A stretch of DNA of 37,917 nt, taken from the IMG/VR virus record IMGVR_UViG_3300045988_130903, one strand, 5' to 3'. Below the pieces are notes generated by a model. That model worked only from the letters and a program-made list of their open reading frames with translations. It was not told the origin of the DNA and did no database searches. Below, in pieces: positions 14,571 through 31,163 of this stretch (the stretch's first letter is position 1; every line of letters begins with the position of its first letter). The translations under genes and the position numbers were made by a program. Origin of the DNA: a virus.

Positions 14571-14607
14571 AAAAAAATAAAAAATAAGTTTTTTCATCTT
14601 ATTTTTT
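14571..14607 (-). terminator. Weak A/U-rich terminator-like hairpin after the endolysin gene
   Basis: AAAAAATAAG-9 nt-CTTATTTTTT followed by a T run; the stem is almost all A-U. Confidence 0.3.
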
Positions 14608-15454
14608 ATTGTTTTATCAAAAATTTACTAGCCATAAAACCTACTTGATTTGTATTATCTATCTTAACCTTATAATATGTATATCCATACTTGTTATAAC
14701 CATAACCCAAATACGTAACAATAGTTCCTTTTCTATAAACTTTGACTTTTTTACCATTACTATCTAACATCCATAATCCAAGTAAAGCGTTAACTTTATA
14801 CTTTACTTCTTTTTTTTGCTCTACTATAGAACATTCACTTGCTAAAACCCAACTATATAACTCTTTTAAAAGAATAGTTTGTCCATCTTTGCTTACTTGT
14901 AGTATAGTATATGTTTTGTTTTTGTAGTTGTTAGGTATTTTTATTCCTTTTGAATTTCCTTGATATTCTGTAGCACTTTCACTTAATCTTACAATTTGAC
15001 CTGTTTTAAACGAAATTTTAGGAGTATCATTTTCAAACTTAATAGGCAAATAGATAAATCCTTGAAATTTATATTTGTCATTATATTTGTAATCGTTTTT
15101 TAAGTGTTTCATATAGAATAAAGTACCTTTGTAAGCACTATTGCTAATATCAATAGAACCATCTTCATAAATCTTCTCTACTACTGCTACATGACCTTTG
15201 TTGCCTTTAAAACATATTATTGAACCTAACTTTGGTGTTTTCCCCTTTTCTAGACTTTTTGTATTAGGATACCAGTTTTCAGCATTGCCATAATGTAATC
15301 CGTTTGGAATATAGCCTATTAGCTCTAAAATTCTACCATAAGCATAGCATGTACAATTTGGCAATCCATAGCCATTTAGGTAATATCTATTGTTATTACT
15401 ATAATAGCATTTATTATTTTTTGTTGGTGCGGTTGTTCTTGGTGTAAATTTCAT
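14606..15454 (-). CDS. Endolysin: CHAP-domain peptidoglycan hydrolase with SH3-like cell-wall-binding repeats
   Basis: NCTCYAYGR...GSIICFKGNKGHVAVVEKI (CHAP Cys/His); repeated C-terminal SH3-like segments. ATG at 15454. Confidence 0.8.
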   Translation of the reverse strand: MKFTPRTTAPTKNNKCYYSNNNRYYLNGYGLPNCTCYAYGRILELIGYIPNGLHYGNAENWYPNTKSLEKGKTPKLGSIICFKGNKGHVAVVEKIYEDGSIDISNSAYKGTLFYMKHLKNDYKYNDKYKFQGFIYLPIKFENDTPKISFKTGQIVRLSESATEYQGNSKGIKIPNNYKNKTYTILQVSKDGQTILLKELYSWVLASECSIVEQKKEVKYKVNALLGLWMLDSNGKKVKVYRKGTIVTYLGYGYNKYGYTYYKVKIDNTNQVGFMASKFLIKQ

Positions 15455-15458
15455 TTTA

Positions 15459-15632
15459 TCACTCTTCTTTCTTATCAATTTTACTTGCAAAGTAAAAAGT
15501 CATTATCATTATAACCAAATCTTTATAATCTGGCTCTACTATTTCAATAAAACACATAATGGTATATGAAATTACCACAATTAATGATAATATGCTTTTC
15601 AAATCAATTAATTTTGCTATTTTTTCTTTCAT
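15459..15632 (-). CDS. Holin (two TM segments), 57 aa
   Basis: ATG at 15632 after GAGGGGGG. SILSLIVVISYTIMCFI and LVIMIMTFYFA; charged C-terminus. Immediately upstream of the endolysin. Confidence 0.65.
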   Translation of the reverse strand: MKEKIAKLIDLKSILSLIVVISYTIMCFIEIVEPDYKDLVIMIMTFYFASKIDKKEE

Positions 15633-15740: not shown

Positions 15741-15768
15741 AATTATATCATTAAATGGTATATTGTCA
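15741..15768 (-). promoter_or_regulatory. Near-consensus promoter TTGACA-16-TGaTATAAT
   Basis: Minus strand reads TTGACAATATACCATTTAATGATATAAT, starting 3 nt after the tRNA-like 3' CCA. Confidence 0.65.
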
Positions 15769-15770
15769 AA

Positions 15771-15844
15771 TTGGAGGGAGTGGAGAATGTTGCAATCTCG
15801 CTCAAGGTGTTGCAGACCTTTGCCTTACTTCTTGGCTACACTCC
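15771..15844 (-). tRNA. tRNA-Cys(GCA)-like gene with encoded CCA and a non-canonical D/T-loop elbow
   Basis: Hand fold: GGGAGUG/CACUCCC 7-bp acceptor, D stem GCC/GGC, anticodon stem AAGGU/ACCUU with loop CUGCAAC, T stem GAGA(U)/(U)UCUC with loop UGCAACA, then U-CCA. Confidence 0.6.
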
Positions 15845-15859
15845 CATTTGAAGAAGAAA

Positions 15860-16309
15860 TTAATCTTCTTTTGGTATTTTTGTATAATAAACCCAAATTT
15901 TGTCTTTTACGGCGTCCTCATCATTAATAAATGCGTTTGCCATTTTTACATAAGTTTCAACATCTTCTTTATCAATAACTTTGTTATAATCATTTACAAG
16001 ACTATTCATAACTACATAAAAATCGCAATCGGTAGCATTTACGCCATAATCTCTTTTGACTTTTGAAGTTGTTTCAAAGTCCCAATATTCGCCTAGTGGT
16101 TTCATATCGTGAACTATTTCATAAGCCATATCTTCATTTAATTTATAATCGTAAGCCATTCCTAATAATTTCATTTTATATTTTTTATAACATTTTGGGT
16201 CGGTTTCTTTCAATTTATAAATAGTATCTTCAAGCATTTCAGATAATTCTTCCATATCTTCTTGTTTACCATTATCAACTATTTTTTTAATATATTCTCT
16301 AATTTTCAT
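15860..16309 (-). CDS. Hypothetical acidic protein, 149 aa
   Basis: ORF track. Confidence 0.6.
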   Translation of the reverse strand: MKIREYIKKIVDNGKQEDMEELSEMLEDTIYKLKETDPKCYKKYKMKLLGMAYDYKLNEDMAYEIVHDMKPLGEYWDFETTSKVKRDYGVNATDCDFYVVMNSLVNDYNKVIDKEDVETYVKMANAFINDEDAVKDKIWVYYTKIPKED

Positions 16310-16478
16310 TAGTGCCTCCTTTCAATAATTTGTCTAGTTTATTCTCAATACTTTCTAAATGTTCGTGTAAATAGTTATGGTCTTCTCTAGCCTTGTTATA
16401 ACTATTAATTTGCATTGCAAATGATATAATGACTAAGATATCAAGTATTTCAAATTGTTGATTATCGTTATTTTGCAT
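16299..16478 (-). CDS. Hypothetical protein, 59 aa (below track cutoff)
   Basis: Hand translation MQNNDNQQFEILDILVIISFAMQINSYNKAREDHNYLHEHLESIENKLDKLLKGGTNEN. Overlaps both neighbours by 11 nt. Confidence 0.4.
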   Translation of the reverse strand: MQNNDNQQFEILDILVIISFAMQINSYNKAREDHNYLHEHLESIENKLDKLLKGGTNEN

Positions 16479-16848
16479 TTTTATCTTCTACACTTTTAGC
16501 ACTAGAAATAACACTACTACAAGCACAACATAAATTATTTCTAACTAAAAATTGCCCTAAAGTATAGTTAGTATTAGTATTTCCATAACTTGCACAATAT
16601 CTAGTTCTAGTTCTTAATTGGTTAGAATATACAGGATTAGCATATTTATCTAATAAAGGCACGTTTCCAGCATTTGTTTGAATAAACACAGGCAAACTAT
16701 TTGTAGCCTTTAAACCACAAGCGATTATTAAATTATAATTAAAAGTATTTGCTAAATTAGTTTGAGTTATAGTTCTATTTGGTATTAGCACCACACCAGT
16801 TGAAGTTGTAGTTAAACTTGTTATATAAATTGTATTACAATTACACAT
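16468..16848 (-). CDS. Cysteine-rich, Thr/Asn-rich protein of unknown function, 126 aa
   Basis: ATG at 16848 after AAAGGAA. MCNCNTIYITS...NNLCCACSS. The track start at 16899 lies in regulatory repeats. Confidence 0.6.
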   Translation of the reverse strand: MCNCNTIYITSLTTTSTGVVLIPNRTITQTNLANTFNYNLIIACGLKATNSLPVFIQTNAGNVPLLDKYANPVYSNQLRTRTRYCASYGNTNTNYTLGQFLVRNNLCCACSSVISSAKSVEDKNAK

Positions 16849-17010
16849 ATTATCATTCCTTTCTATAATTTTGCACAATATTTTAAATATTTTGTGCATT
16901 TTTGGTCTTTTAGACCCCTATTTTGCACAAATATTGTACATTTTTACAATTATTTTTTTTAATTAGTCCACTTATAATTGGACTTTTTTATCTAAAAGTG
17001 GACTTTTTTT

Positions 17011-17040
17011 AAATAAAAAGCACAGGTTTCCCTATGCTTA
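17011..17040 (-). terminator. Terminator-like hairpin (AAGCAU-10 nt-GUGCUU plus U-rich tail) with possible alternative pairing
   Basis: Read on the minus strand after the stop at 17079. UUCCCUAU (17055-17062) can pair instead with AUAGGGAA (17028-17035). Confidence 0.4.
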
Positions 17041-17078
17041 TATCAACCTATAAAATAGGGAAGTAGTTCACTAATCTA

Positions 17079-17705
17079 CTAATAAAGTGAGTTGCAACCA
17101 CAAGTTCCTAAACCATAGTAACTAGCATAAGGGCTAGGTACAGTGTAGGCTGGAATTGGTGCTTGAGGTTTCATTGCTGAGATTATTCTTTGTTCGCTTA
17201 ATAATTGACCTTGTTCAGCAATTTTGCTATCTTTTTGTTCCATAACATAAGCATTAATTGTGTCAACTATTCTTTGAGTGTTAGCAGTTCCAGCGTTGAT
17301 TATGTCGCAAGTGTTCTTAGCGTTTTCATATCTTACGCTGTCGATGTTACGATTTGTTTCGCAGCAACAAGATTGCATTTGGTAACCTAAGTTAGCAATG
17401 CCAGTTTGTGTTGCAAATGAACTATCTTTAATAGAATTGTTTAAAGCATAAGAACTATCACAAAGCCCGTTTTCAAGACCATTCAACTTATTAATAACAT
17501 TTTGGTTATTAAATTCATTTGAAACAAAGTCTTTTGTAGCAGGTACATCATAAGAACCACCACGACTACCACCAAAGCCAAAGCCATTTCCTCCCCATGC
17601 TAATAGGAAGAATAAGAATATAGCCCAAACTCCATTACCACCAAACATTCCGTCATTATCTTTTAATAATGCTAAATCTCCAGCAGAAAGTCCTGTTCCG
17701 TTCAT
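17079..17705 (-). CDS. Membrane-anchored Gly-rich / Cys-rich protein of unknown function, 208 aa
   Basis: GGNGVWAIFLFFLLAWGGNGFGFGGSRGG (TM flanked by Gly repeats); later SCCCETN, NTCD, GTCGCNSLY. Strong RBS AAGGAGG. Confidence 0.65.
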   Translation of the reverse strand: MNGTGLSAGDLALLKDNDGMFGGNGVWAIFLFFLLAWGGNGFGFGGSRGGSYDVPATKDFVSNEFNNQNVINKLNGLENGLCDSSYALNNSIKDSSFATQTGIANLGYQMQSCCCETNRNIDSVRYENAKNTCDIINAGTANTQRIVDTINAYVMEQKDSKIAEQGQLLSEQRIISAMKPQAPIPAYTVPSPYASYYGLGTCGCNSLY

Positions 17706-17804
17706 AAACTACCTCCTTTCTCTATAACTCATTATACTAGGCTAATAAGTTTATTGAGATGTTCTAATACCTAGTTATTAAAGCACCTCAATAAGCCTAT
17801 TGGC

Positions 17805-18035
17805 TTATATATTTATTCCATAACTATTAGCCATTTTTCTAACTTCATCAACACTAACACCTTTTTGTTTAGCAATTTGATTAATAACTTCTTGTTTATT
17901 TCCATTTTGACTAAGTTGCTGTGCCATTTGCCACGCATTATTTAGTTGTGGATTTTGTTTTATTAAGTTTTCCACCATTGCCATTTTGTTCGGTGCTTTC
18001 ATTATCTGCATAAACATTGCCATTTGATTGTTCAT
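17805..18035 (-). CDS. Gln/Asn/Met-rich small protein, 76 aa
   Basis: ORF track; AAAGGA lies 9 nt before the ATG. Overlaps the upstream ORF by 98 nt in another frame. Confidence 0.5.
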   Translation of the reverse strand: MNNQMAMFMQIMKAPNKMAMVENLIKQNPQLNNAWQMAQQLSQNGNKQEVINQIAKQKGVSVDEVRKMANSYGINI

Positions 18036-18342
18036 TTGTTATCATTCCTTTCAATTCACTAATTTGTTTCTCTAATTCTTCAATTTTTTCATCTTTTTCA
18101 TCTTTTGGTAAGACAAGCCCATAGGTTGTTATTGTTCCGTCAATATCCTTTATTTTTAATTCCTTTTTAAACAGGTCTATAAAGGCTGTTTTATGATTGA
18201 CAAACATTTCCTCTACCTTTTCATCTTTCTTTAAAAATTGAGCCATAAATAAGTTATTTAAAGGCATTTGAGTATTGATTATATTTTGAATTGGTTGTTG
18301 TTGATTTTCTCTAAAATTATTAAAATATGGATTACCATACAT
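17938..18342 (-). CDS. Hypothetical coiled-coil protein, ~134 aa
   Basis: ORF track. ATG at 18342 (MYGNPYF...) after GAAAGG. Confidence 0.5.
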   Translation of the reverse strand: MYGNPYFNNFRENQQQPIQNIINTQMPLNNLFMAQFLKKDEKVEEMFVNHKTAFIDLFKKELKIKDIDGTITTYGLVLPKDEKDEKIEELEKQISELKGMITNEQSNGNVYADNESTEQNGNGGKLNKTKSTTK

Positions 18343-18443
18343 AAATATCACTACCTTTCAATGAAAAAGAGAAATAGCAAGCCATAATCGTTTTAAGATT
18401 TATTTTAAACTATTCCTCTCCTTTCTTAACTAAATTATATAAC

Positions 18444-18473
18444 AAAAAAGAAAGCCATTTTTATTGACTTTCT
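18444..18473 (-). terminator. Terminator-like hairpin (AGAAAG-13 nt-CUUUCU plus U run)
   Basis: Read on the minus strand after the stop at 18483. The large loop makes it weak. Confidence 0.35.
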
Positions 18474-18482
18474 ATGTGTATT

Positions 18483-18677
18483 TTATAAAATTTTTTTAAT
18501 TTTTTTCTTTAATTTTCTAATCATAACATCAAGAGTAGGTTCACTAACATTAAGTTCCATTGCAATTTTAGTTCTTGTCGTACCTTTAATTTTCATTTCA
18601 AGAAGTTTACAATATTCTTCATTAAGCATACATTCATCGCATATTTTTAGATATTCCGTTTTACTGAAATCAAACAT
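18483..18677 (-). CDS. Sigma-70 region-4-like HTH protein, 64 aa (candidate transcription regulator)
   Basis: TRTKIAMELNVSEPTLDVMIRKLKKKI resembles a region 4 / LuxR-type HTH. Confidence 0.55.
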   Translation of the reverse strand: MFDFSKTEYLKICDECMLNEEYCKLLEMKIKGTTRTKIAMELNVSEPTLDVMIRKLKKKIKKIL

Positions 18678-18796
18678 TACTTATTTCCCATAAATTTACC
18701 ACAAGTCTTACATCTTCTGCGACCTTTGCTATCTTTTTTTGTTTTAGATTTACGATATTTTGTTATACGAATTCTAGTTAATTTGATTTTTCCCAT
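18677..18796 (-). CDS. Very basic 39-aa peptide with a CxxC pair (below track cutoff)
   Basis: Hand translation MGKIKLTRIRITKYRKSKTKKDSKGRRRCKTCGKFMGNK. TAATG coupling to the regulator gene. Confidence 0.35.
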   Translation of the reverse strand: MGKIKLTRIRITKYRKSKTKKDSKGRRRCKTCGKFMGNK

Positions 18797-18886: not shown

Positions 18887-19066
18887 TTAAGCAAATATAT
18901 AGTATAAACCTAACAAGCAAGTAAACATTCCTAAAATTACTAATATTATAATAAATTGTCTTTTATTTTGTTTCTTTTGGTCTTTTAAAAGTTCCATTGC
19001 GAATGAATGCTCTTGCATTTCTTCTACTTCTTTTTCCAACTCTAACACTTCCTCTTTTAAATCCAT
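18887..19066 (-). CDS. Coiled-coil protein with C-terminal TM (XhlA-like topology), 59 aa (below track cutoff)
   Basis: Hand translation MDLKEEVLELEKEVEEMQEHSFAMELLKDQKKQNKRQFIIILVILGMFTCLLGLYYIFA. RBS AGAGGAGG. Replaces track ORF 18963-19148. Confidence 0.55.
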   Translation of the reverse strand: MDLKEEVLELEKEVEEMQEHSFAMELLKDQKKQNKRQFIIILVILGMFTCLLGLYYIFA

Positions 19067-19068
19067 TT

Positions 19069-19329
19069 TTATCCTCCTCTATGATATATTGCAACGTGTT
19101 TTTCCATTTCTTCTCTAACAATTTTTTTTGTTTCATTTTCAAAAACATCTAATTTTGCTTCGATTTTATCTAATTTTTTCATAATGGTAGATAATGTGTT
19201 ATCTAATTTTCCTTTTTCATATTGTTCTTTAGCAATATCTTTATTTGATTTTAATTTTTTATTATCGAAAAATGTAGTTACCGAAATAATCGAGCCTATA
19301 ATTGCTATTGCGAATGTAATATATTGCAT
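19069..19329 (-). CDS. N-terminal TM plus coiled-coil protein, 86 aa
   Basis: ITFAIAIIGSIISVTTFF, then a heptad-like region. Confidence 0.55.
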   Translation of the reverse strand: MQYITFAIAIIGSIISVTTFFDNKKLKSNKDIAKEQYEKGKLDNTLSTIMKKLDKIEAKLDVFENETKKIVREEMEKHVAIYHRGG

Positions 19330-19383: not shown

Positions 19384-20628
19384 TTAATTTTGCGTTTCAT
19401 TAACCCATGTTAGGGTACCATTTATATTTTTTAATATTTGTGTTTTAGTTTCATCATAACCTGTATAAGTCTTGTATAAATCGCTTTTAGGAGCTAATGA
19501 TTCCCATTTTTGTTCAGTTGCATTTCCTCTTACTAAATCATAATTATTGCCTACTGTGTAAACATCATTTTCATTAATATCACTAGGTGTAGTAGTTACA
19601 AATGAAGTATTTCCATTTTCATCGAATGCTAACATTTTATAACCTTCATTATAGAAAAAGTCATTTAATTCCAATGTGTTGTATTGATAGCTTGTAATAT
19701 TAGGATTTTTTTTAAATTTTAAATTATGCCCAATATTACTAAACATACTTAACGCTTTAAATAAATCATTCCATCCAGTATCTTTATATACCCATCCGGG
19801 TTTACTCATAGTTGTATTTGAACTTGTACTTGTTCCATCTTCATAATTAATTATATTTATATTAGAAACCTTACAAGGCTTACTTGTAGAAGCATTAATA
19901 TGAACATACATTGTTACGCAAGCACTATAACCGCTTGTAGGTGCAAAATATATAGCATCTATTATTTCCGGGTAATTAGTTTCTAACATAAAGGCATAAT
20001 TGACTTTATCAAACCACATCCCTAAATAATAATCATAATTTATGGCTCTAGCATTTTCGATTTTTTCTTTTCGAGTTGTATCATTACTAATTATATTATT
20101 AGCAAACTCAGTCCCTATTGAATTGCTAGGGCTAATAAGTGTACCACTTACTTGTCCAGCGGTTGGCAAATCTTCTTTTGAATTAACGTGTCCTTTATAT
20201 TTTAATCTTTTACTTAATTCATCATAAACAACTTTAGCACTAGGATATTGAACATTAGTTGAATTGCCATCTAGTGAAGTCACTTTATTTGCTTTATCTT
20301 CTTTGCCACTTATGTCTTGATGTTCGATTAAATAACCAACGTCATTTTCAAAAGCACTTATATTGATTGGAATTGTTGGGATACTAGGTTTGTTACTTAA
20401 ATCATTATAATCGCCGCTAAAGTCACTTTTATTGTTCCAATTGGTTATATCATTTTTGGTAATTCCACTCGCCGCACTCGAGGTAAATATTGGGTCGGTT
20501 TCGGTTGGAACCAAATTTTTATATTTTATTTTTTTTGTTTCCATTTTCCTCGTATCAACAATTGGTAAAAAATCATCCATATAAGGGTATTGTAATTCTG
20601 ATAATTCACTTATTTTAATATTTGTCAT
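19384..20628 (-). CDS. Tail fibre / receptor-binding protein
   Basis: ATG at 20628 after AAAGGAGG. MTNIKISELSEL... N-terminus and its position after the tail-tip protein. Confidence 0.65.
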   Translation of the reverse strand: MTNIKISELSELQYPYMDDFLPIVDTRKMETKKIKYKNLVPTETDPIFTSSAASGITKNDITNWNNKSDFSGDYNDLSNKPSIPTIPINISAFENDVGYLIEHQDISGKEDKANKVTSLDGNSTNVQYPSAKVVYDELSKRLKYKGHVNSKEDLPTAGQVSGTLISPSNSIGTEFANNIISNDTTRKEKIENARAINYDYYLGMWFDKVNYAFMLETNYPEIIDAIYFAPTSGYSACVTMYVHINASTSKPCKVSNINIINYEDGTSTSSNTTMSKPGWVYKDTGWNDLFKALSMFSNIGHNLKFKKNPNITSYQYNTLELNDFFYNEGYKMLAFDENGNTSFVTTTPSDINENDVYTVGNNYDLVRGNATEQKWESLAPKSDLYKTYTGYDETKTQILKNINGTLTWVNETQN

Positions 20629-20639
20629 TTTTTCCTCCT

Positions 20640-22670
20640 TTATTTCCATCTTCCTATTGCTGTCCACATTATCTCTCTTTCATAATTTTTTTGAGTTGTC
20701 TGTAGTGAAATTCTTGCTTGAGTTTTTGATTGTGGCACCGCATAAGTATTACATATATAATTCATATTTTCGTGGCGTACTTCACTTGTCATTTGAATTT
20801 TTTGTACATCCACATTAGAAAATTCAAATGGAAAATTTATATAAGTATCTGCACAATAATATGTTAATCCCCCAGATGTTTTTTGTTCGTTAGATGTGAG
20901 TCTTACTATACCTCTACATATCATAGTTCCATCATAGAATTTTACATATTCACCATCATTATTACTTCCACTTTCAACAATTGGATTACCACTTATCAAA
21001 ATATTTTCGGAATTTAAATTTTTTATAAAACCCCCATCTATTCCAAATCTAACACCATTTTTATCGTTTGTTTCATCATATATTACAAATGTGTTGTATC
21101 CATCATAACTATTAATTTTAAGTTTACCAACTCTAGTTGATGGATTTGTTCCTAATACTATCTTTTGTACAAGCAACAAATCGTTTATGTCTAAAATTCC
21201 ATTTCCGTTAGCATCATAATATTCTAGTTGTGCTTTAGTAGGTGTTGTACCATCTACAAGAATTTGTTTCAAGATATTAACATCTTCTTGAGTATAATTT
21301 CTTTCCCAAGTTATATTAGAGTCAACAAACATACTACCTTTATCGTCAATTTTAAAACTATCATTAATTGAGGTATACCCCTCTAATATAATATTTTTTG
21401 CTTTAACTTGAAATATAGAACCCCCATCAGCATCTGCCCCAAGACTAACCAGTGTAATTTCACCGTTGCTATTAACCTTTAATACAATTTGTGCGTTTGC
21501 TTTATCAAGATTGATAACAGCGTTGTTTAATTTGTTTTGATTTTTGTCAACTGCAACATAATCATTAACATTGTTTTCAGGCTTATCAGCATAACATTTT
21601 TCACTTATTCCTACATTTATTTTTATTTCATCGTTTAACATTAAAGTTGAATATTTATTATCGTTTATTTTAATGCTAAACCTATCTAAAGGTTCATAAA
21701 TAAGTAGACCATTTGTATCAATATCATAAATATAATATTCCAAACCATTTATTTTTTCAAACATATTGTCAATAAAATCATCACTATTATTTAATAAAAT
21801 ATAATTATCATTAAATTTAATTTCTGTTTTACCATTTTGCTCTATCGAATTCTCATCAATTCTATTATTTAAAGTAACATTATCATTTGTAGTAATTAAA
21901 ATTGCGTTTACCACTCCAAATTTTTCTTTTATTTCGACATTTATGTTTTTTAAATTATCTTCATCTATTATGCTATCATTTTCAGTTGATTTTTCTATAT
22001 ATTTTATTTTTAATTTTTCGTTTTTGTCAAACAAAATGTTACCAACAACAACTTGTGAAATATTGTCTAAAATATCTCGATAAGTTAAGTTAAGATTGTT
22101 AAATAAATCTTTATCTAAAACTTTGTCATAATTTATAAAATTATCTAATTCATAATTCCAACCAAATTTTTGACATATTTTAATTAAAAAATCTTTTATT
22201 GTTATTGGGTATGTAATGTTAAATGTTTCTGTTTCATAGAGTATCATACTTTCATACATTTTATCATAAGCAAGTATTGAATAACTTTTGGTGTTGGCAT
22301 TATACACACTTTCTTTTGTGTAAAAATAACCCAAATCAACATATTCAAAATCATTTTCAACTTTTACACCAACTTTAATGTTTATTTTGGTTTTAGATGG
22401 TATGTTTTCTCTTGAATTAATTTCTAGTTGCTTACAAACACTTTTAAATAAATCTGTATTAAATGTTCTTACTACTGATAAAAGATTATCTTCTGATATT
22501 TGGTAATCGTTATTTTCAATTGCCAATAAATCGTTTAATTCGGTTACAATATTTTCATTTAATTCAGTTGCTAATATATAGTTTACACCTTTTAGTTTAT
22601 AACTTATTATAGTATTCAATTCATTTTCTTTCTTTAAATTTTGATTAAATTTTTCACTAACCACTTCCAT
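20640..22670 (-). CDS. Tail-tip (Tal-like) structural protein with one dockerin/EF-hand-like segment
   Basis: 676 aa, downstream of the tape measure and Dit-like gene. DANGNGILDINDLLLVQKIVLG at residues 486-507. Confidence 0.65.
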   Translation of the reverse strand: MEVVSEKFNQNLKKENELNTIISYKLKGVNYILATELNENIVTELNDLLAIENNDYQISEDNLLSVVRTFNTDLFKSVCKQLEINSRENIPSKTKINIKVGVKVENDFEYVDLGYFYTKESVYNANTKSYSILAYDKMYESMILYETETFNITYPITIKDFLIKICQKFGWNYELDNFINYDKVLDKDLFNNLNLTYRDILDNISQVVVGNILFDKNEKLKIKYIEKSTENDSIIDEDNLKNINVEIKEKFGVVNAILITTNDNVTLNNRIDENSIEQNGKTEIKFNDNYILLNNSDDFIDNMFEKINGLEYYIYDIDTNGLLIYEPLDRFSIKINDNKYSTLMLNDEIKINVGISEKCYADKPENNVNDYVAVDKNQNKLNNAVINLDKANAQIVLKVNSNGEITLVSLGADADGGSIFQVKAKNIILEGYTSINDSFKIDDKGSMFVDSNITWERNYTQEDVNILKQILVDGTTPTKAQLEYYDANGNGILDINDLLLVQKIVLGTNPSTRVGKLKINSYDGYNTFVIYDETNDKNGVRFGIDGGFIKNLNSENILISGNPIVESGSNNDGEYVKFYDGTMICRGIVRLTSNEQKTSGGLTYYCADTYINFPFEFSNVDVQKIQMTSEVRHENMNYICNTYAVPQSKTQARISLQTTQKNYEREIMWTAIGRWK

Positions 22671-29974: not shown

Positions 29975-30136
29975 ATAAATATCTCCTCCCTCGATTTTTT
30001 CAAGTGGTCTACTCCACCAAGAATTTAATATTTAAACCATCTTAAGCAATCAATGGTTGTAGCCTTTAGGTCATGAGTTCAAGACTTGCACTTGATTAAT
30101 CTCTTTAGTACTCATGATAAATAAAAAGAACTCAGA

Positions 30137-30265
30137 CTATTTGTCTTGGTTCTCTAAATTGTGGAACTCTATCAATTTTTTACAATGTCGGCACATTATT
30201 GAAATAATACCTTTGAATTTGCCTTTGAATAACAATTTGCCACACATACAACGATATTCTTTCAT
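30137..30265 (-). CDS. Com-like zinc-ribbon protein, 42 aa (below track cutoff)
   Basis: Hand translation MKEYRCMCGKLLFKGKFKGIISIMCRHCKKLIEFHNLENQDK. Compare phage Mu Com MKSIRCKNCNKLLFKA...IEIRCPRCK. RBS AAAGGTAGG. Confidence 0.55.
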   Translation of the reverse strand: MKEYRCMCGKLLFKGKFKGIISIMCRHCKKLIEFHNLENQDK

Positions 30266-30288
30266 TAACTCGCCTACCTTTATATCAC

Positions 30289-30458
30289 TAAATAGATTAT
30301 ATCATATTTATTAAAAAAAATCAAATATATAAAATTAGGAATAATATAATATAAATAATTAATAATATATTTAATAATAATTAATATAAATAATAATAAA
30401 TAATATATATACAGATACAGATGTATACCTACGGTATAGATAGGGTATAGATAGGGTA
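30289..30458. repeat. Second origin-like module: diverged copy of 10188-10315 in intergenic DNA
   Basis: Shares TAAATAGATTATAT (30289-30302 = 10188-10201) and ATACAGATACAGATGTAT (30409-30426 = 10266-10283). About 110 bp of almost pure A/T. TACGGTA/TAGGGTA/TAGGGTA at 30430, 30441 and 30452 (11-bp phasing). Confidence 0.6.
30296..30324 (-). promoter_or_regulatory. Promoter TTGATT-17-TGaTATAAT upstream of the Com-like ORF, scaffold and capsid genes
   Basis: Minus strand reads TTGATTTTTTTTAATAAATATGATATAAT. Confidence 0.5.
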
Positions 30459-30493
30459 TTTATTTTTGTCCATTTTTTTATCAAATAAGCCAC

Positions 30494-30518
30494 AAAAAAA
30501 CAACCATTTAAGGTTGCT
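30494..30518 (-). terminator. Rho-independent terminator
   Basis: GCAACC-UUAAAU-GGUUG followed by seven U on the minus strand. Confidence 0.55.
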
Positions 30519-30600
30519 TAATTTCAAATACATCAGGGGTATGTTATCCAAATACACTTCACATACACTATCAACAACAATAATCTTTCTAATGTGTCAA

Positions 30601-30629
30601 ATTATACTTAATTATTATGTTTTTAGCAA
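30601..30629 (-). promoter_or_regulatory. Possible internal promoter TTGCTA-17-TATAAT
   Basis: Minus strand reads TTGCTAAAAACATAATAATTAAGTATAAT. It overlaps the 3' end of the tRNA-like module and would give a ~100-nt RNA ending at the 30494 terminator. Confidence 0.3.
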
Positions 30630-30702
30630 GTGGGTGGGCTCGAACCACCATTCAATTTTAGGTTGACAGCCTATTATCTACTCATAAGGTCGCCCAGAGT
30701 AG
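30626..30702 (-). ncRNA. tRNA-like three-hairpin module without an acceptor stem
   Basis: Minus strand: CUACUC-13 nt-GAGUAG; UAGG-CUGUCAA-CCUA; canonical T arm GGUGG-UUCGAGC-CCACC. No complementary 5'/3' acceptor strands. Confidence 0.5.
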
Positions 30703-31127
30703 CCCCTAGAAAAATCTTATTATGATTAAAATTGTATCTTTAATAGATACTGATACTAAATAATAAAATCTTTCGTCACTTCTCTGTCTAGAATTGTTTT
30801 TATTGTTATCTCGAGTTCAATAAAATATATTCGTCTGAGTTACCTTTAATTAGAATACGTCTAATTGTGTTCCTTTATTATTTAGTATCACTACCTACTA
30901 GAGATAGTCCATATAATCATAATATAGGTACTTATTGTCCATAAAGATGAATTGCTACATCAAGTGGAACTTGACTTACTCCATTCTGGAACACATTTAC
31001 AGACTACTAGTTTTTATAAGCACCATAGAATAAATAAGTCCAAGCTATTAAAAGACAAGCAAGTTTATAGATACATACGATTATCATCTTGCGTTATTGC
31101 GTAAGTTATAGTTTTATTTATTTATTC
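30626..31127 (-). ncRNA. Candidate large structured non-coding RNA (~0.5 kb; may extend to the terminator at 30494)
   Basis: Strong promoter upstream and no credible ORF. Perfect 17-bp long-range helix 30874-30890/30751-30767. Hairpins at 30848-30866, 30734-30750 and 30960-30974. tRNA-like 3' module. Confidence 0.45.
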
Positions 31128-31133
31128 AATTTA

Positions 31134-31162
31134 ATTATATCACTTTAACTTGCTTTTTGCAA
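31134..31162 (-). promoter_or_regulatory. Promoter TTGCAA-17-TGaTATAAT driving the non-coding unit
   Basis: Minus strand reads TTGCAAAAAGCAAGTTAAAGTGATATAAT. Confidence 0.65.
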
Positions 31163-31163
31163 A

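What the first reader, a model, noticed from the sequence alone, without database searches (positions are those of the whole stretch)
16299..18796. Accessory cassette of cysteine-rich, glycine-rich and Q/N-rich proteins with its own sigma-region-4-like regulator, splitting the lysis region
An approximately 3-kb block separates the tail fibre and membrane proteins (18887-19329) from the holin and endolysin. It encodes:
- a 39-aa very basic CxxC peptide, coupled to a 64-aa sigma-region-4-like HTH
- a terminator, then two overlapping Q/N/M-rich ORFs
- a 208-aa protein with a TM helix embedded in GGNG/GFGFGG repeats and a Cys-rich ectodomain (SCCCETN, GTCGCNSLY)
- a 126-aa Thr/Asn/Cys-rich protein (MCNCN..., NNLCCAC)
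- two further ORFs and the tRNA-Cys-like gene

I recognise no family for the core proteins.

The intergenic DNA at 16849-17078 has direct repeats ATATT(T)GTGCAAAAT (two copies, plus a related ATGCACAAAAT). They flank a GGUCU-AAA-AGACC hairpin and a 9-bp inverted repeat AGTCCACTT/AAGTGGACT. This suggests dedicated regulation.

The content looks like a moron or host-interaction module: surface or spore-associated proteins, a bacteriocin-like factor, or superinfection exclusion. It does not look like virion or lysis machinery.
Basis: partly seen in the sequence, partly recalled or inferred. Interest (0 to 1): 0.65.

Follow-up and report, generated by a model that had tools for sequence, protein, structure and literature searches.

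The report
Widespread mobile phage cassette, function unknown
The block is one copy of a self-contained gene cassette that thousands of gut phages carry and swap but can lose without harm. It encodes a small regulator, a cysteine-rich helical protein with a hydrophobic anchor, and a small beta-sandwich partner, and none of its core proteins resembles a characterised system.

Summary
The ORFs, the HTH, the terminators, the repeats and the tRNA-Cys-like gene are all present as described.

The block is not a one-off. It is a conserved module with this gene order: sigma-region-4-type HTH, A (Q/N-rich), B (Met-rich 'NPMQMM'), C (Gly-flanked hydrophobic helix plus an invariant CCC-x-TNRNID motif), D (Cys-tipped beta-sandwich; a BclA_C-like protein in other phages), E, and F (DUF7841).

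- **Spread:** C has about 2,900 clusters at 50% identity, on phage contigs and prophage ends attributed to many bacterial phyla.
- **Mobility:** near-identical cassettes sit among unrelated tail, head or lysis genes.
- **Dispensability:** five C. perfringens phages with about 93% identical flanks have cleanly deleted genes A to E.
- **tRNA link:** a tRNA-Cys follows the cassette in four loci.
- **Repeats:** they lie in a 137-bp structured insert found only in this window, so they are not conserved regulation.
- **Known families:** no match to any lysis, tail, defence or bacteriocin family.

The 'accessory cassette with its own regulator' reading is supported. The function remains unknown. My best guess is a hydrophobically anchored stalk-and-knob complex that acts at the envelope of the infected cell.

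The parts
18887..19066 (-). 59-aa protein with a coiled coil and a C-terminal TM helix. The left edge of the DNA block shared with relatives falls inside it.
   Evidence: ORF. blastn homology with L075 and L076 starts at 19038/19060. No family hit.
18677..18796 (-). 39-aa very basic CxxC peptide, translationally coupled to the HTH gene (TAATG overlap).
   Evidence: Lies inside the block that is 87% identical to L075. One similar 46-aa ORF in L006. No family hit.
18483..18677 (-). 64-aa sigma-70 region 4 / LuxR-GerE-type HTH, the first gene of the cassette.
   Evidence: GerE E=4.6e-5 (23.4 bits, cut-off 23.5) and Sigma70_r4_2 E=0.015. sigma70-ECF E=4.9e-4. The same kind of gene lies upstream of A/B/C in 33 of 69 loci. 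Alignment A9.
18449..18473 (-). Terminator-like hairpin plus T-run after the HTH gene.
   Evidence: 9 pairs, loop of 7, TTTTTTGTTAT tail.
17938..18351 (-). Gene A (134-137 aa): Q/N/P/Y-rich N-terminus, small central domain, C-terminal coiled coil.
   Evidence: 68-90% identical to L070/L071/L073. Aligns with the A family found at position -2 in 48 loci.
17805..18035 (-). Gene B (76 aa): Met/Gln-rich 'NPMQMM'-type helical protein with a conserved C-terminal G-x-S/D...FGI motif. It overlaps A.
   Evidence: B family in 41 of 69 loci, directly upstream of C. Only sub-threshold hits, to SurA_N, STI1-HOP_DP and Trigger_C.
17738..17807 (.). Imperfect 35-nt-arm palindrome/hairpin at the end of B.
   Evidence: Inverted repeat I1; hairpin 17791-17808.
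17079..17705 (-). Gene C (208 aa), the core protein. It has a short acidic N-tail, an 11-13-residue hydrophobic helix flanked by GGNG/GFGFGG, long helices with invariant CCC-x-TNRNID...RYEN..NTCDI, and a Pro/Tyr/Cys-rich tail (P-x-PAY..SPY...CGC).
   Evidence: phrog_16490 E=2e-22. 3,346 homologues. 2,898 clusters at 50% identity. Invariant columns in alignment A1. AF2 model is helical but low confidence, pLDDT 46.6.
17018..17039 (-). Terminator-like hairpin after C. A hairpin plus T-run is kept at this position in all seven relatives compared.
   Evidence: Alignments A4 and A7 show it in L070-L073 and L075-L077; L073 has a different stem sequence at the same position.
16872..17007 (-). Window-specific 137-bp structured insert that holds the AGTCCACTT/AAGTGGACT hairpin and the GTGCAAAAT/TGCACAAA and GGTCT-AAA-AGACC hairpins.
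   Evidence: Absent from L070-L077. RNA fold of 16860-17045 gives -49.5 kcal/mol, z = -7.4. No Rfam hit. A 20-nt core is absent from IMG/VR.
16468..16848 (-). Gene D (126 aa): beta-sandwich with Cys at both ends (MCNCN..., ...LCCAC).
   Evidence: 102 close homologues. AF2 pLDDT 78, pTM 0.70. BFVD matches to small phage proteins (E about 1e-7) and to C-terminal domains of tail-fibre and collagen-like proteins (E 1e-4 to 1e-3). No PDB match. The same slot holds BclA_C-like proteins elsewhere.
16299..16478 (-). Gene E (59 aa): hydrophobic N-terminal helix plus coiled coil.
   Evidence: A profile of 10 proteins at the same position in other loci scores the window's E at 12.4 bits, E=8.6e-5 against the 13 window proteins tested. 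The slot is sometimes held by ferritin/rubrerythrin-like mini-proteins.
15860..16309 (-). Gene F (149 aa): DUF7841.
   Evidence: PF25223 E=3.7e-10, 40.5 bits against a cut-off of 25.2. F at +2/+3 in 22-24 loci. 245 homologues, all single-domain. A D-like + DUF7841 fusion exists in a crAss-like virus.
15775..15845 (-). tRNA-Cys(GCA)-like gene with a non-canonical T-loop.
   Evidence: Rfam RF00005, 48.4 bits. Not called by ARAGORN. Canonical or similar tRNA-Cys genes lie directly after the cassette in L071 and L073 and 1.5 kb after C in L052.
15742..15769 (-). Perfect sigma-70 consensus promoter (TTGACA-16-TGnTATAAT) in front of the holin and endolysin genes. It marks the right boundary of the cassette.
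   Evidence: 12 of 12 matches, TG extension.

Best explanation
**What it is (well supported).** Window positions about 19040 to 15775 on the minus strand hold one copy of a widespread phage cassette. It is horizontally mobile and dispensable.

Its gene order is: sigma-region-4/LuxR-type HTH, then A, B, C, D, E and F(DUF7841). Here it also carries a tRNA-Cys. Terminator-like hairpins split it into sub-units.

**How it works (inferred).**
- The cassette is expressed as its own unit, strongly enough during lytic growth that a tRNA-Cys is worth carrying.
- C is the core. Its short, Gly-flanked hydrophobic helix anchors it in the cytoplasmic membrane, which is the one docking site common to all these hosts and phage types. 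Its long helices form an oligomeric stalk.
- The invariant CCC...C cluster and the Cys/Tyr/Pro-rich tail bridge subunits, or join C to D, through metal or disulfide bonds.
- D is a Cys-tipped beta-sandwich. In other phages its slot holds a BclA_C/TNF-like trimer. I propose it is the variable head on the stalk.
- B is Met-rich, like the client-binding domains of chaperones. I propose it shields C's hydrophobic helix before insertion.
- A, E and F (or ferritin/rubrerythrin-like substitutes) would be assembly or adaptor factors.

**Proposed role.** The complex gives an accessory fitness function at the envelope of the infected or lysogenic cell. The most likely roles are competition with or exclusion of other phages, or tuning of lysis. 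It is not part of the virion or of the core holin-endolysin machinery.
For: **Conserved synteny.** Around 69 C genes from many phyla: A-like in 48 loci, B in 41, D in 36 plus D2 in 27, F in 22-24, and an HTH within 1.6 kb upstream in 33.

**Family size.** 3,346 homologues and 2,898 clusters at 50% identity.

**Mobility.** Only A to D (66-90% aa identity), or the HTH-to-F block (87% nt identity), is shared with loci whose flanks are unrelated. The cassette lies before the endolysin (L075, L070, L071), after it (L076, L045, the C. perfringens phages), or inside a head module (L077).

**Dispensability.** phiCP39-O, 26F, 9O, 13O and 34O lack A to E and the 5' end of F'. The junction is clean, right after a shared terminator, and a truncated remnant gene is left. 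Flanks are about 93% identical.

**Prophage-end position.** A host tRNA or tmRNA gene on the opposite strand lies 0.1-2.5 kb downstream in L011, L019, L028, L041, L065 and L066.

**tRNA-Cys link.** Of the 6 co-oriented tRNAs within about 1.5 kb of a cassette, 4 are tRNA-Cys (window, L071, L073, L052). C and D together are 4.2% Cys, against 1.29% for the rest of the proteome.

**No signal peptide** on A, B, D, E or F (sequences).

**Charge bias.** The N-flank of the hydrophobic helix is acidic: 0.92 K/R against 2.79 D/E over 146 homologues.

**D slot.** BclA_C is hit by 15 of 56 proteins in this slot, best E=8e-9. The D model resembles the C-terminal domains of tail-fibre and collagen-like proteins.

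**Fusions.** A D-like domain is fused to DUF7841, which links D and F.

**Own signals.** A promoter-like site lies upstream at 19378-19350. Terminator-like hairpins follow the HTH and C, and the one after C is kept in relatives.

**No known family.** No hit in Pfam, NCBIfam, PADLOC or PDB to lysis, tail or defence families.
Against: - Nothing shows the function.
- The C model has pLDDT 46.6, so the stalk, its oligomeric state and any contact between C and D are all inference.
- The hydrophobic stretch is short (10-13 residues, with Gly/Asn flanks). It may not span a membrane.
- The topology call rests on a weak charge bias.
- B's similarity to chaperone domains is sub-threshold and could be compositional.
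- D and D2 are not detectably homologous (hhalign probability 4%). D has no PDB fold match.
- Exclusion genes are usually single small genes made at low level. A seven-gene unit with a tRNA-Cys suggests abundant products, which fits a structural material better.
- The cassette usually sits among late structural or lysis genes.
- One protein (P0400) fuses the C domain to a tail-fibre-like N-terminus. That favours the virion-fibre rival.
Confidence: 0.35

Rival explanations
1. **Portable virion accessory fibre or decoration.** C trimerises into a helical shaft and D is its distal knob. A and B are assembly chaperones. The fibre is added to particles (head or tail) to improve adhesion or stability, much like phi29 head fibres or T4 fibritin, and is dispensable in the laboratory.
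For: - The D model matches C-terminal domains of tail-fibre and collagen-like proteins.
- The D2 type is BclA_C-like.
- P0400 joins a tail-fibre-like N-terminus and coiled coil to the C domain, without the hydrophobic helix.
- The cassette usually follows tail fibre or receptor-binding genes. Once it lies in a head module.
- There are no signal peptides.
- The tRNA-Cys and the 3' hairpin after C suggest abundant late products.
- Dispensability fits a decoration.
Against: - The same cassette, N-termini included, occurs in phages with unrelated tails and heads. BFVD labels homologues as myo-, sipho-, podo- and crAss-like. No common virion docking partner is therefore apparent.
- In the C. perfringens phages, lysis genes and about 12 small genes separate it from all structural genes.
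- It carries its own regulator and terminators.
- A Gly-flanked hydrophobic helix is unusual for a soluble fibre base.
- P0400 is a single 2.9-kb contig and may be a deletion or an assembly artefact.
Confidence: 0.2
2. **Lysis accessory.** C is a membrane-active protein (holin-, antiholin- or spanin/fusogen-like). With E and the neighbouring small TM proteins, it tunes the timing or completeness of envelope disruption.
For: - Next to holin and endolysin genes in most loci where these could be named (window, L045, L070, L071, L075, L076).
- C has an N-proximal hydrophobic Gly-rich segment, long helices, conserved Cys and a Pro-rich tail. That is reminiscent of i-spanins and of viral fusion peptides (my reading of the sequence).
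- E-like proteins resemble the neighbouring TM/coiled-coil protein (E10 profile against the 86-aa protein: 16.4 bits).
Against: - No hit of C, E or the small TM proteins to any holin, spanin or XhlA family.
- The phages have separate holins.
- Order relative to the lysis genes varies, and the cassette can lie in a head module.
- The same protein serves monoderm and diderm hosts.
- Five phages lyse C. perfringens without it.
Confidence: 0.12
3. **Self-assembling, Cys/Tyr-cross-linked protein coat or matrix.** This would be analogous to an exosporium: a BclA-like nap on a Cys-rich basal layer, with ferritin/catalase-like coat proteins. It would form late in infection, around or among virions or on cell debris, and protect particles in the gut.
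For: - BclA_C-like proteins in the D slot.
- Cys-rich C and D.
- Gly/Tyr/Asn-rich low-complexity ends on A and C.
- Recurrent ferritin/rubrerythrin-like small proteins in the cassette. The L070 60-aa protein hits Rubrerythrin at E=2e-4. The phiCP39-O gene next to the cassette site is annotated 'contains ferritin domain'.
- The tRNA-Cys implies abundant product.
Against: - The argument is purely analogical. No homology to ExsY, CotY or CdeC was tested or found.
- Hosts are mostly anaerobes, where oxidative cross-linking is not expected.
- No such phage structure is known.
Confidence: 0.06
4. **Secreted bacteriocin-like or toxin factor, or spore-specific lysogenic-conversion genes.** These are the first reader's alternatives.
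For: - Gly-rich hydrophobic peptide region in C.
- A sigma-like regulator sits upstream of proteins without signal peptides, next to a holin. That layout recalls the TcdR- and UviA-type loci of clostridia (my knowledge).
- Prophage-end position.
Against: - No C39 peptidase/ABC exporter, immunity gene or toxin domain in the window.
- The N-terminus of C fits the double-glycine leader consensus poorly.
- The cassette occurs in virulent-type phages: the window has no integrase-sized ORF, and the C. perfringens phages are lytic isolates.
- It occurs in MAGs of non-spore-forming groups, and a relative of C occurs in Vibrio phages.
Confidence: 0.04

Closest known systems
Phage 'morons' / accessory cassettes at the end of the late operon (for example lambda bor/lom, HK97 gp15 exclusion, prophage-end conversion genes)
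   Same: - Discrete block with its own promoter-like and terminator-like signals.
- Inserted between otherwise syntenic genes.
- Present or absent among close relatives.
- Lies at the att-proximal end of prophages.
   Different: - Seven co-inherited genes with their own HTH, not one or two genes.
- Conserved across phyla in thousands of phages.
- Also carried by virulent-type phages.
- No protein is related to any known moron product.
BclA C-terminal domain (PF18573; TNF/C1q-like trimer of the Bacillus exosporium nap)
   Same: The gene after C encodes a 110-150-aa stand-alone beta-sandwich. In 15 of 56 loci scanned it hits BclA_C (best E=8e-9), over the full length of the domain in the one member whose match was shown. 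Cys residues sit at both termini.
   Different: - No collagen-like region and no exosporium-targeting N-terminal domain.
- The window's own D does not hit BclA_C and is not detectably homologous to the BclA_C-like type.
- No PDB fold match for D.
Clostridial TcdR/UviA-type loci (small sigma factor + non-secreted cargo + holin/endolysin-derived release genes)
   Same: A sigma-like regulator sits at the head of genes for proteins without signal peptides, next to holin and endolysin genes. The comparison itself rests on my own knowledge.
   Different: - The regulator is only a 64-aa region-4-type HTH, not a full group-5 sigma factor.
- The cargo is unrelated.
- Adjacency to the holin is not constant.
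i-spanins (Rz) and N-terminal fusion-peptide/coiled-coil fusogens
   Same: N-proximal hydrophobic, Gly-rich segment followed by long helices with conserved Cys and a Pro-rich end (sequence).
   Different: - No sequence or profile similarity.
- No o-spanin partner.
- Present in phages of monoderm hosts.
- Dispensable for lysis of C. perfringens.
Met-rich client-binding chaperone domains (STI1/DP, SurA N-terminal, trigger factor C-terminal)
   Same: B is a 75-aa helical protein with repeated NP-x-Q-M-M motifs. The families that B members hit most often are these three (5, 3 and 3 of 35 members).
   Different: All hits are below threshold (best E=0.004) and may only reflect composition. No experimental or structural support.

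Membership tests
Sigma-70 region 4 / LuxR-GerE HTH | Profile match to the region-4-type helix-turn-helix at or above the curated cut-off | tested here: inconclusive
   GerE 23.4 bits against a cut-off of 23.5; Sigma70_r4_2 15.3 against 25.7. sigma70-ECF 19.8 against 42.9. The alignment with cassette HTHs shows the L-x-E..+..hE...G.s...IA...n.SEST pattern.
Sigma-70 region 4 / LuxR-GerE HTH | Full sigma factor (regions 2 and 4) | tested here: not met
   The protein is only 64 aa, and the matches cover region 4 alone.
Pfam DUF7841 (PF25223) | Score above the gathering threshold | tested here: met
   F scores 40.5 bits against 25.2, E=3.7e-10. 118 of the 120 homologues listed carry PF25223.
PHROG 16490 (unknown function) | Profile match | tested here: met
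   C: E=2.2e-22, 81 bits.
BclA_C (PF18573) / TNF-C1q-like | Profile match of the window's D | tested here: not met
   No Pfam hit for D. hhalign of D against D2 gives probability 4%. Foldseek PDB best E=0.11.
BclA_C (PF18573) / TNF-C1q-like | Profile match of proteins in the same slot in other loci | tested here: met
   15 of 56 members hit, best E=8.3e-9. L020 protein: E=1.3e-5 over profile positions 6-127 of 128, below the 38-bit cut-off.
tRNA (Rfam RF00005) | Covariance-model score above the gathering score; cloverleaf with anticodon | tested here: met
   48.4 bits against 29; full-length model match with GCA at the anticodon position.
tRNA (Rfam RF00005) | Canonical T-arm, as accepted by ARAGORN | tested here: not met
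   ARAGORN finds no gene. The T-loop reads UUGCAAC, with a mismatched closing pair.
Holins / spanins / XhlA (lysis proteins) | Profile match of C, E or the adjacent small TM proteins to a lysis family | tested here: not met
   None in Pfam, PHROGs or NCBIfam. The only trace is A against an Rz-like PHROG at E=0.075.
Tail / baseplate accessory proteins | Sequence or fold homology to characterised tail proteins | tested here: inconclusive
   No sequence hit for A to F. The D model matches C-terminal domains of uncharacterised tail-fibre and collagen-like proteins in BFVD (E 1e-4 to 1e-3, TM about 0.5). There is one tail-fibre-like/C-domain fusion.
Known anti-phage defence systems (PADLOC) | Profile match to a defence protein | tested here: not met
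   Only weak HTH-type (CasR) and coiled-coil hits; nothing for C, D, E or F.
Double-glycine-leader bacteriocins | GG leader plus a C39-peptidase ABC exporter and an immunity gene nearby | tested here: not met
   No such ORF among the window's genes. The leader consensus is poorly matched (my reading).
Moron (operational definition) | Autonomous promoter/terminator-flanked insert, absent from close relatives, dispensable | tested here: met
   Signals. Block boundaries. Natural deletion in the phiCP39-O group. Promoter activity itself was not tested.

The most novel reading that the evidence does not exclude
The cassette is an uncharacterised multi-protein phage system, common in gut viromes. 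It would build a new kind of supramolecular structure: a Cys- or metal-bridged stalk-and-knob array, or an exosporium-like coat. This would use a hydrophobically anchored helical protein, a TNF/BclA-like trimer, a Met-rich holdase and ferritin-like partners, under its own region-4-only sigma-like regulator and supplied by its own tRNA-Cys. The structure would sit on the infected cell's membrane or around progeny particles. It would be a class of phage accessory machinery with no described counterpart.
Probability: 0.3. Interest if true: 0.85.

Novelty: categorically new. Interest (0 to 1): 0.68.

Why it matters
The core protein family has about 2,900 clusters at 50% identity. It appears on phage contigs and prophage ends attributed to Firmicutes, Negativicutes, Bacteroidota, Spirochaetes, Melainabacteria and others, and a relative of the core protein occurs in Vibrio phages. 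No member has a name or a function.

A seven-gene unit that phages of unrelated architecture exchange intact, can lose without dying, and equip with a regulator and a tRNA-Cys must confer a strong conditional advantage in nature. Working out what it does would annotate thousands of 'hypothetical' genes at once. It could also reveal a new principle of phage-host or phage-phage interaction in anaerobic gut communities.

The work gives a directly testable system: cultured C. perfringens phages that differ naturally by presence (PMQ04, CPD1, CPQ4, XP41-N3, HMD-PC1, 17DYC) or absence (phiCP39-O, 26F, 9O, 13O, 34O) of the cassette.

Tried and rejected
**Searches that gave nothing usable**
- megablast of the region against 50,697 phage records: no match.
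- tblastn of D against the phage records: no match.
- Sequence search of PDB with the C and D profiles: nothing.
- Foldseek of the D model against PDB: nothing significant.
- The AF2 model of C was too poor (pLDDT 46.6) to search with.
- NCBIfam and PADLOC: no informative hits.
- Pfam on 40 C members: only scattered weak hits (FliK 8 of 40, E about 0.008), judged compositional.
- Plasmid and E. coli collections: essentially absent. The 'E. coli' MAG contig L045 is probably mis-binned.
- Literature searches for DUF7841, for BclA/C1q in phages, and for the cassette-bearing C. perfringens phages: no functional information.
- Looking for close genome relatives of the window through its two tail proteins in IMG/VR: only partial matches.

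**Ideas rejected**
- The GTGCAAAAT and AGTCCACTT repeats as regulator binding sites. They lie in an insert private to this window.
- A and B as a frameshift pair. B has its own RBS and ATG, and the frame offset is not constant between loci.
- 'Long' C homologues as domain fusions. They were ORF over-extensions, except P0400.
- XhlA identity of the two small TM proteins. No Pfam hit.
- D and D2 as one family. hhalign finds no relation.

Full report
**Setting.** The window is a complete, circularly permuted phage genome of about 37.9 kb and 27% G+C. All genes are on the minus strand.
- Going downstream on the minus strand it encodes: large terminase (708-2264, wrapping round), portal, minor head protein, major head protein, tape measure and two tail-fibre-like proteins (20640-22670 and 19384-20667).
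- The block in question follows, then a 68-aa two-TM holin candidate and a CHAP endolysin (14606-15490).
- After those come recombination, helicase and methylase genes.
- Every ORF of 300 aa or more is accounted for. No integrase-sized gene is left, so the phage looks virulent. This is an inference.

**Observation.**
- The 64-aa protein is a region-4/LuxR-type HTH at the family threshold: GerE 23.4 against 23.5 bits, sigma70-ECF E=5e-4.
- Two minus-strand terminator-like hairpins fall exactly in cassette gaps, one after the HTH and one after C. The region has 6 such sites against 1.5 in shuffles.
- The tRNA-Cys(GCA)-like gene at 15775-15845 passes Rfam (48.4 against 29 bits). ARAGORN does not call it, because the T-arm is aberrant.
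- The repeats in the C-D spacer are real. Folding shows they are arms of three strong hairpins (z = -7.4).
- Alignment with seven related loci shows that 16872-17007 is a 137-bp insert private to this window. Relatives go straight from the conserved terminator to D's ribosome-binding site. This includes two whose C protein is 98% identical.
- The repeats are therefore not a conserved regulatory feature.

**It is a conserved module.** C matches phrog_16490 (E=2e-22). It has 3,346 homologues in the 90% clustered database and 2,898 clusters at 50% identity. None has a name.

I fetched 64 loci from GTDB genomes and 5 from annotated phages, then called and clustered the neighbouring ORFs. The recurring order is:
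- an HTH within 1.6 kb upstream, in 33 of 69 loci;
- A-like, in 48 loci: Q/N/P/Y-rich N-terminus, a small conserved central domain, then a coiled coil;
- B, in 41 loci: about 75 aa, with repeated NP-x-Q-M-M motifs and a conserved C-terminal helix pair;
- C;
- D in 36 loci, or an unrelated D2 in 27 loci;
- a short E-like protein;
- F (DUF7841, in 22-24 loci), or other helical, ferritin/rubrerythrin-like proteins.

The record titles span Clostridia, Bacilli, Negativicutes, Bacteroidota, Treponema, Fibrobacter, Fusobacteria, Melainabacteria and Mycoplasmatota. Most are 35-55-kb contigs, so bin assignments are uncertain. Several lie in large chromosomal contigs. A more distant relative of C occurs in 127 Vibrio phage records.

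**The proteins.**
- **C.** It has a short acidic N-tail, then an 11-13-residue hydrophobic stretch flanked by Gly-rich motifs. Long helices follow, with invariant CCC, R, D and a nearly invariant TNRNID...RYEN..NTCDI motif. It ends in an invariant P..P.Y....PY tail with terminal Cys. The AF2 model is helical but unreliable, pLDDT 46.6.
- **Topology of C.** Over 146 homologues the N-flank of the hydrophobic helix carries 0.92 K/R against 2.79 D/E. The C-flank carries 1.25 against 1.45. This weakly favours N-out/C-in. A, B, D, E and F have no signal peptides. The 'ectodomain' reading is therefore doubtful.
- **D.** It models as a beta-sandwich (pLDDT 78, pTM 0.70) and has no PDB match. In BFVD it matches small uncharacterised phage proteins (E about 1e-7). 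It also matches the C-terminal domains of tail-fibre and collagen-like proteins (E 1e-4 to 1e-3), and a D-like + DUF7841 fusion in a crAss-like virus.
- **The D slot.** In other loci the slot is hit by BclA_C in 15 of 56 proteins, best E=8e-9.
- **B.** Its only recurrent hits, all sub-threshold, are to client-binding chaperone domains: SurA_N, STI1-HOP_DP and Trigger_C.
- **Negative results.** Nothing in NCBIfam, PADLOC or PDB sequence searches is informative.

**Mobile.**
- Against L070, L071 and L073, only A to D are similar (66-90% aa identity). The flanks are unrelated.
- Against L075 and L076, the shared DNA runs from about 19040 to 15845 at 87% identity, with different tail and lysis genes on either side.
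- The cassette lies before the endolysin in L075, L070 and L071. It lies after it in L076, L045 and the C. perfringens phages.
- In L077, A to D sit between a minor-capsid gene and the scaffold and capsid genes, followed by a glycosyltransferase.
- In prophages, a host tRNA or tmRNA gene on the opposite strand lies 0.1-2.5 kb downstream. The cassette is therefore the last thing before the attachment site.

**Dispensable.**
- Six C. perfringens phages carry A to G: PMQ04, CPD1, CPQ4, XP41-N3, HMD-PC1 and 17DYC.
- Five others (phiCP39-O, 26F, 9O, 13O, 34O) have about 93% identical neighbouring replication genes but keep only the last 0.8 kb.
- The junction lies immediately after a shared terminator. 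It runs into the middle of the F-like gene and leaves a truncated 78-aa remnant. This is a deletion in viable lytic phages.

**tRNA-Cys link.**
- Co-oriented tRNA-Cys(GCA) genes lie directly after the cassette in L071 and L073, and 1.5 kb after C in L052, as well as in the window. These make up 4 of the 6 co-oriented tRNAs near cassettes.
- C and D together are 4.2% Cys, against 1.29% for the rest of the proteome.
- This suggests abundant translation during lytic growth.

**Interpretation.**
- *Shown:* a coherent, widely conserved, mobile and dispensable cassette that carries its own HTH and terminators.
- *Inferred:* because identical cassettes serve phages with unrelated virions and hosts with different envelopes, the hydrophobic segment of C most plausibly docks in the cytoplasmic membrane. 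C would then form a helical, Cys-bridged stalk and D (or BclA_C-like D2) a variable head. B would act as a holdase for the hydrophobic helix, and A, E and F as adaptors. The role would be accessory, at the envelope: phage-phage competition or exclusion, or lysis tuning.
- *Main rival:* a portable virion fibre or decoration. It is favoured by D's fold, by late-region placement, by the need for abundant product, and by one protein (P0400). P0400 fuses a tail-fibre-like N-terminus and coiled coil to the C domain and is followed by a DUF7841 gene.
- *Weaker rivals:* a lysis accessory, an exosporium-like cross-linked coat, and a bacteriocin or spore role.

**Comparison with known systems.** In organisation it behaves like a moron, but it has seven co-inherited genes and pan-phylum conservation. 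Only three membership tests are met: F (DUF7841), the tRNA (Rfam), and the D2-type proteins (BclA_C, with significant E-values). The HTH is at threshold. Membership in lysis, tail, defence and bacteriocin families was tested and not met.

To my knowledge, and in the searchable literature, the module has not been described.

**Verdict.** A real and coherent feature. Its core has no characterised relative and its function is unknown. The proposed repeat-based regulation and the ectodomain are not.

Noticed in passing
window 15775-15845 (-); L071 7375-7448; L073 7783-7860; L052 10024-10098: A phage-borne tRNA-Cys(GCA) recurs next to the Cys-rich cassette in four loci. The copies in the window and in L071 have an unusual T-loop (UGCAA in place of UUCAA/UUCGA). 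ARAGORN misses the window's copy.
   Followed up: partly
window 16872-17007: A 137-bp, hairpin-rich insert (z = -7.4 for 16860-17045) sits between the terminator of C and the RBS of D. It is absent from all relatives, has no Rfam match, and is not found in IMG/VR. It could be a miniature mobile element or an acquired promoter or processing site.
   Followed up: partly
window 15742-15769 (-): A perfect extended sigma-70 consensus promoter (TTGACA-16-TG-n-TATAAT) lies directly after the tRNA and ahead of the holin and endolysin genes. This suggests the lysis genes have their own strong promoter.
   Followed up: no
window 29975-31163: About 1.2 kb between the scaffold-like gene and the minor head protein gene has no ORF of 55 aa or more on the coding strand, and AT skew is locally near zero. 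No Rfam family reaches its gathering score there.
   Followed up: no
L071 5228-5830 (-); L075 5883-6380; L073 159-845: Homing-endonuclease genes (NUMOD1, HNH_3, NUMOD4/HNH) are inserted inside or beside the cassette. One sits on the opposite strand between B and C in L071.
   Followed up: no
L077 7204-8256 and L078 4003-5055: A GT2 glycosyltransferase directly follows D where the cassette lies inside a head module. This may hint at glycosylation of a cassette or capsid protein.
   Followed up: no
L070 7105-7287; L086 5268-5795 (phiCP39-O gp45); H9 and G15 families in several loci: Small ferritin/rubrerythrin-like helical proteins, some with an E...ExxH pattern, recur just downstream of D. The phiCP39-O homologue is annotated 'contains ferritin domain', and it is kept even where A to E are deleted.
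   Followed up: partly
L066 and L067 (same 125-kb Faecalibacterium contig, 38.7 kb apart): Two copies of the C/D2 region that are identical in gene layout and match score lie on one contig. In L066 a tmRNA gene lies about 1 kb downstream of C.
   Followed up: no
window 19069-19329 and 18887-19066 (-): Two small proteins with mirror-image architecture lie between the tail fibre and the cassette: one is TM then coiled coil, the other coiled coil then TM. Neither hits XhlA or any holin family, although they sit where such genes are expected.
   Followed up: partly
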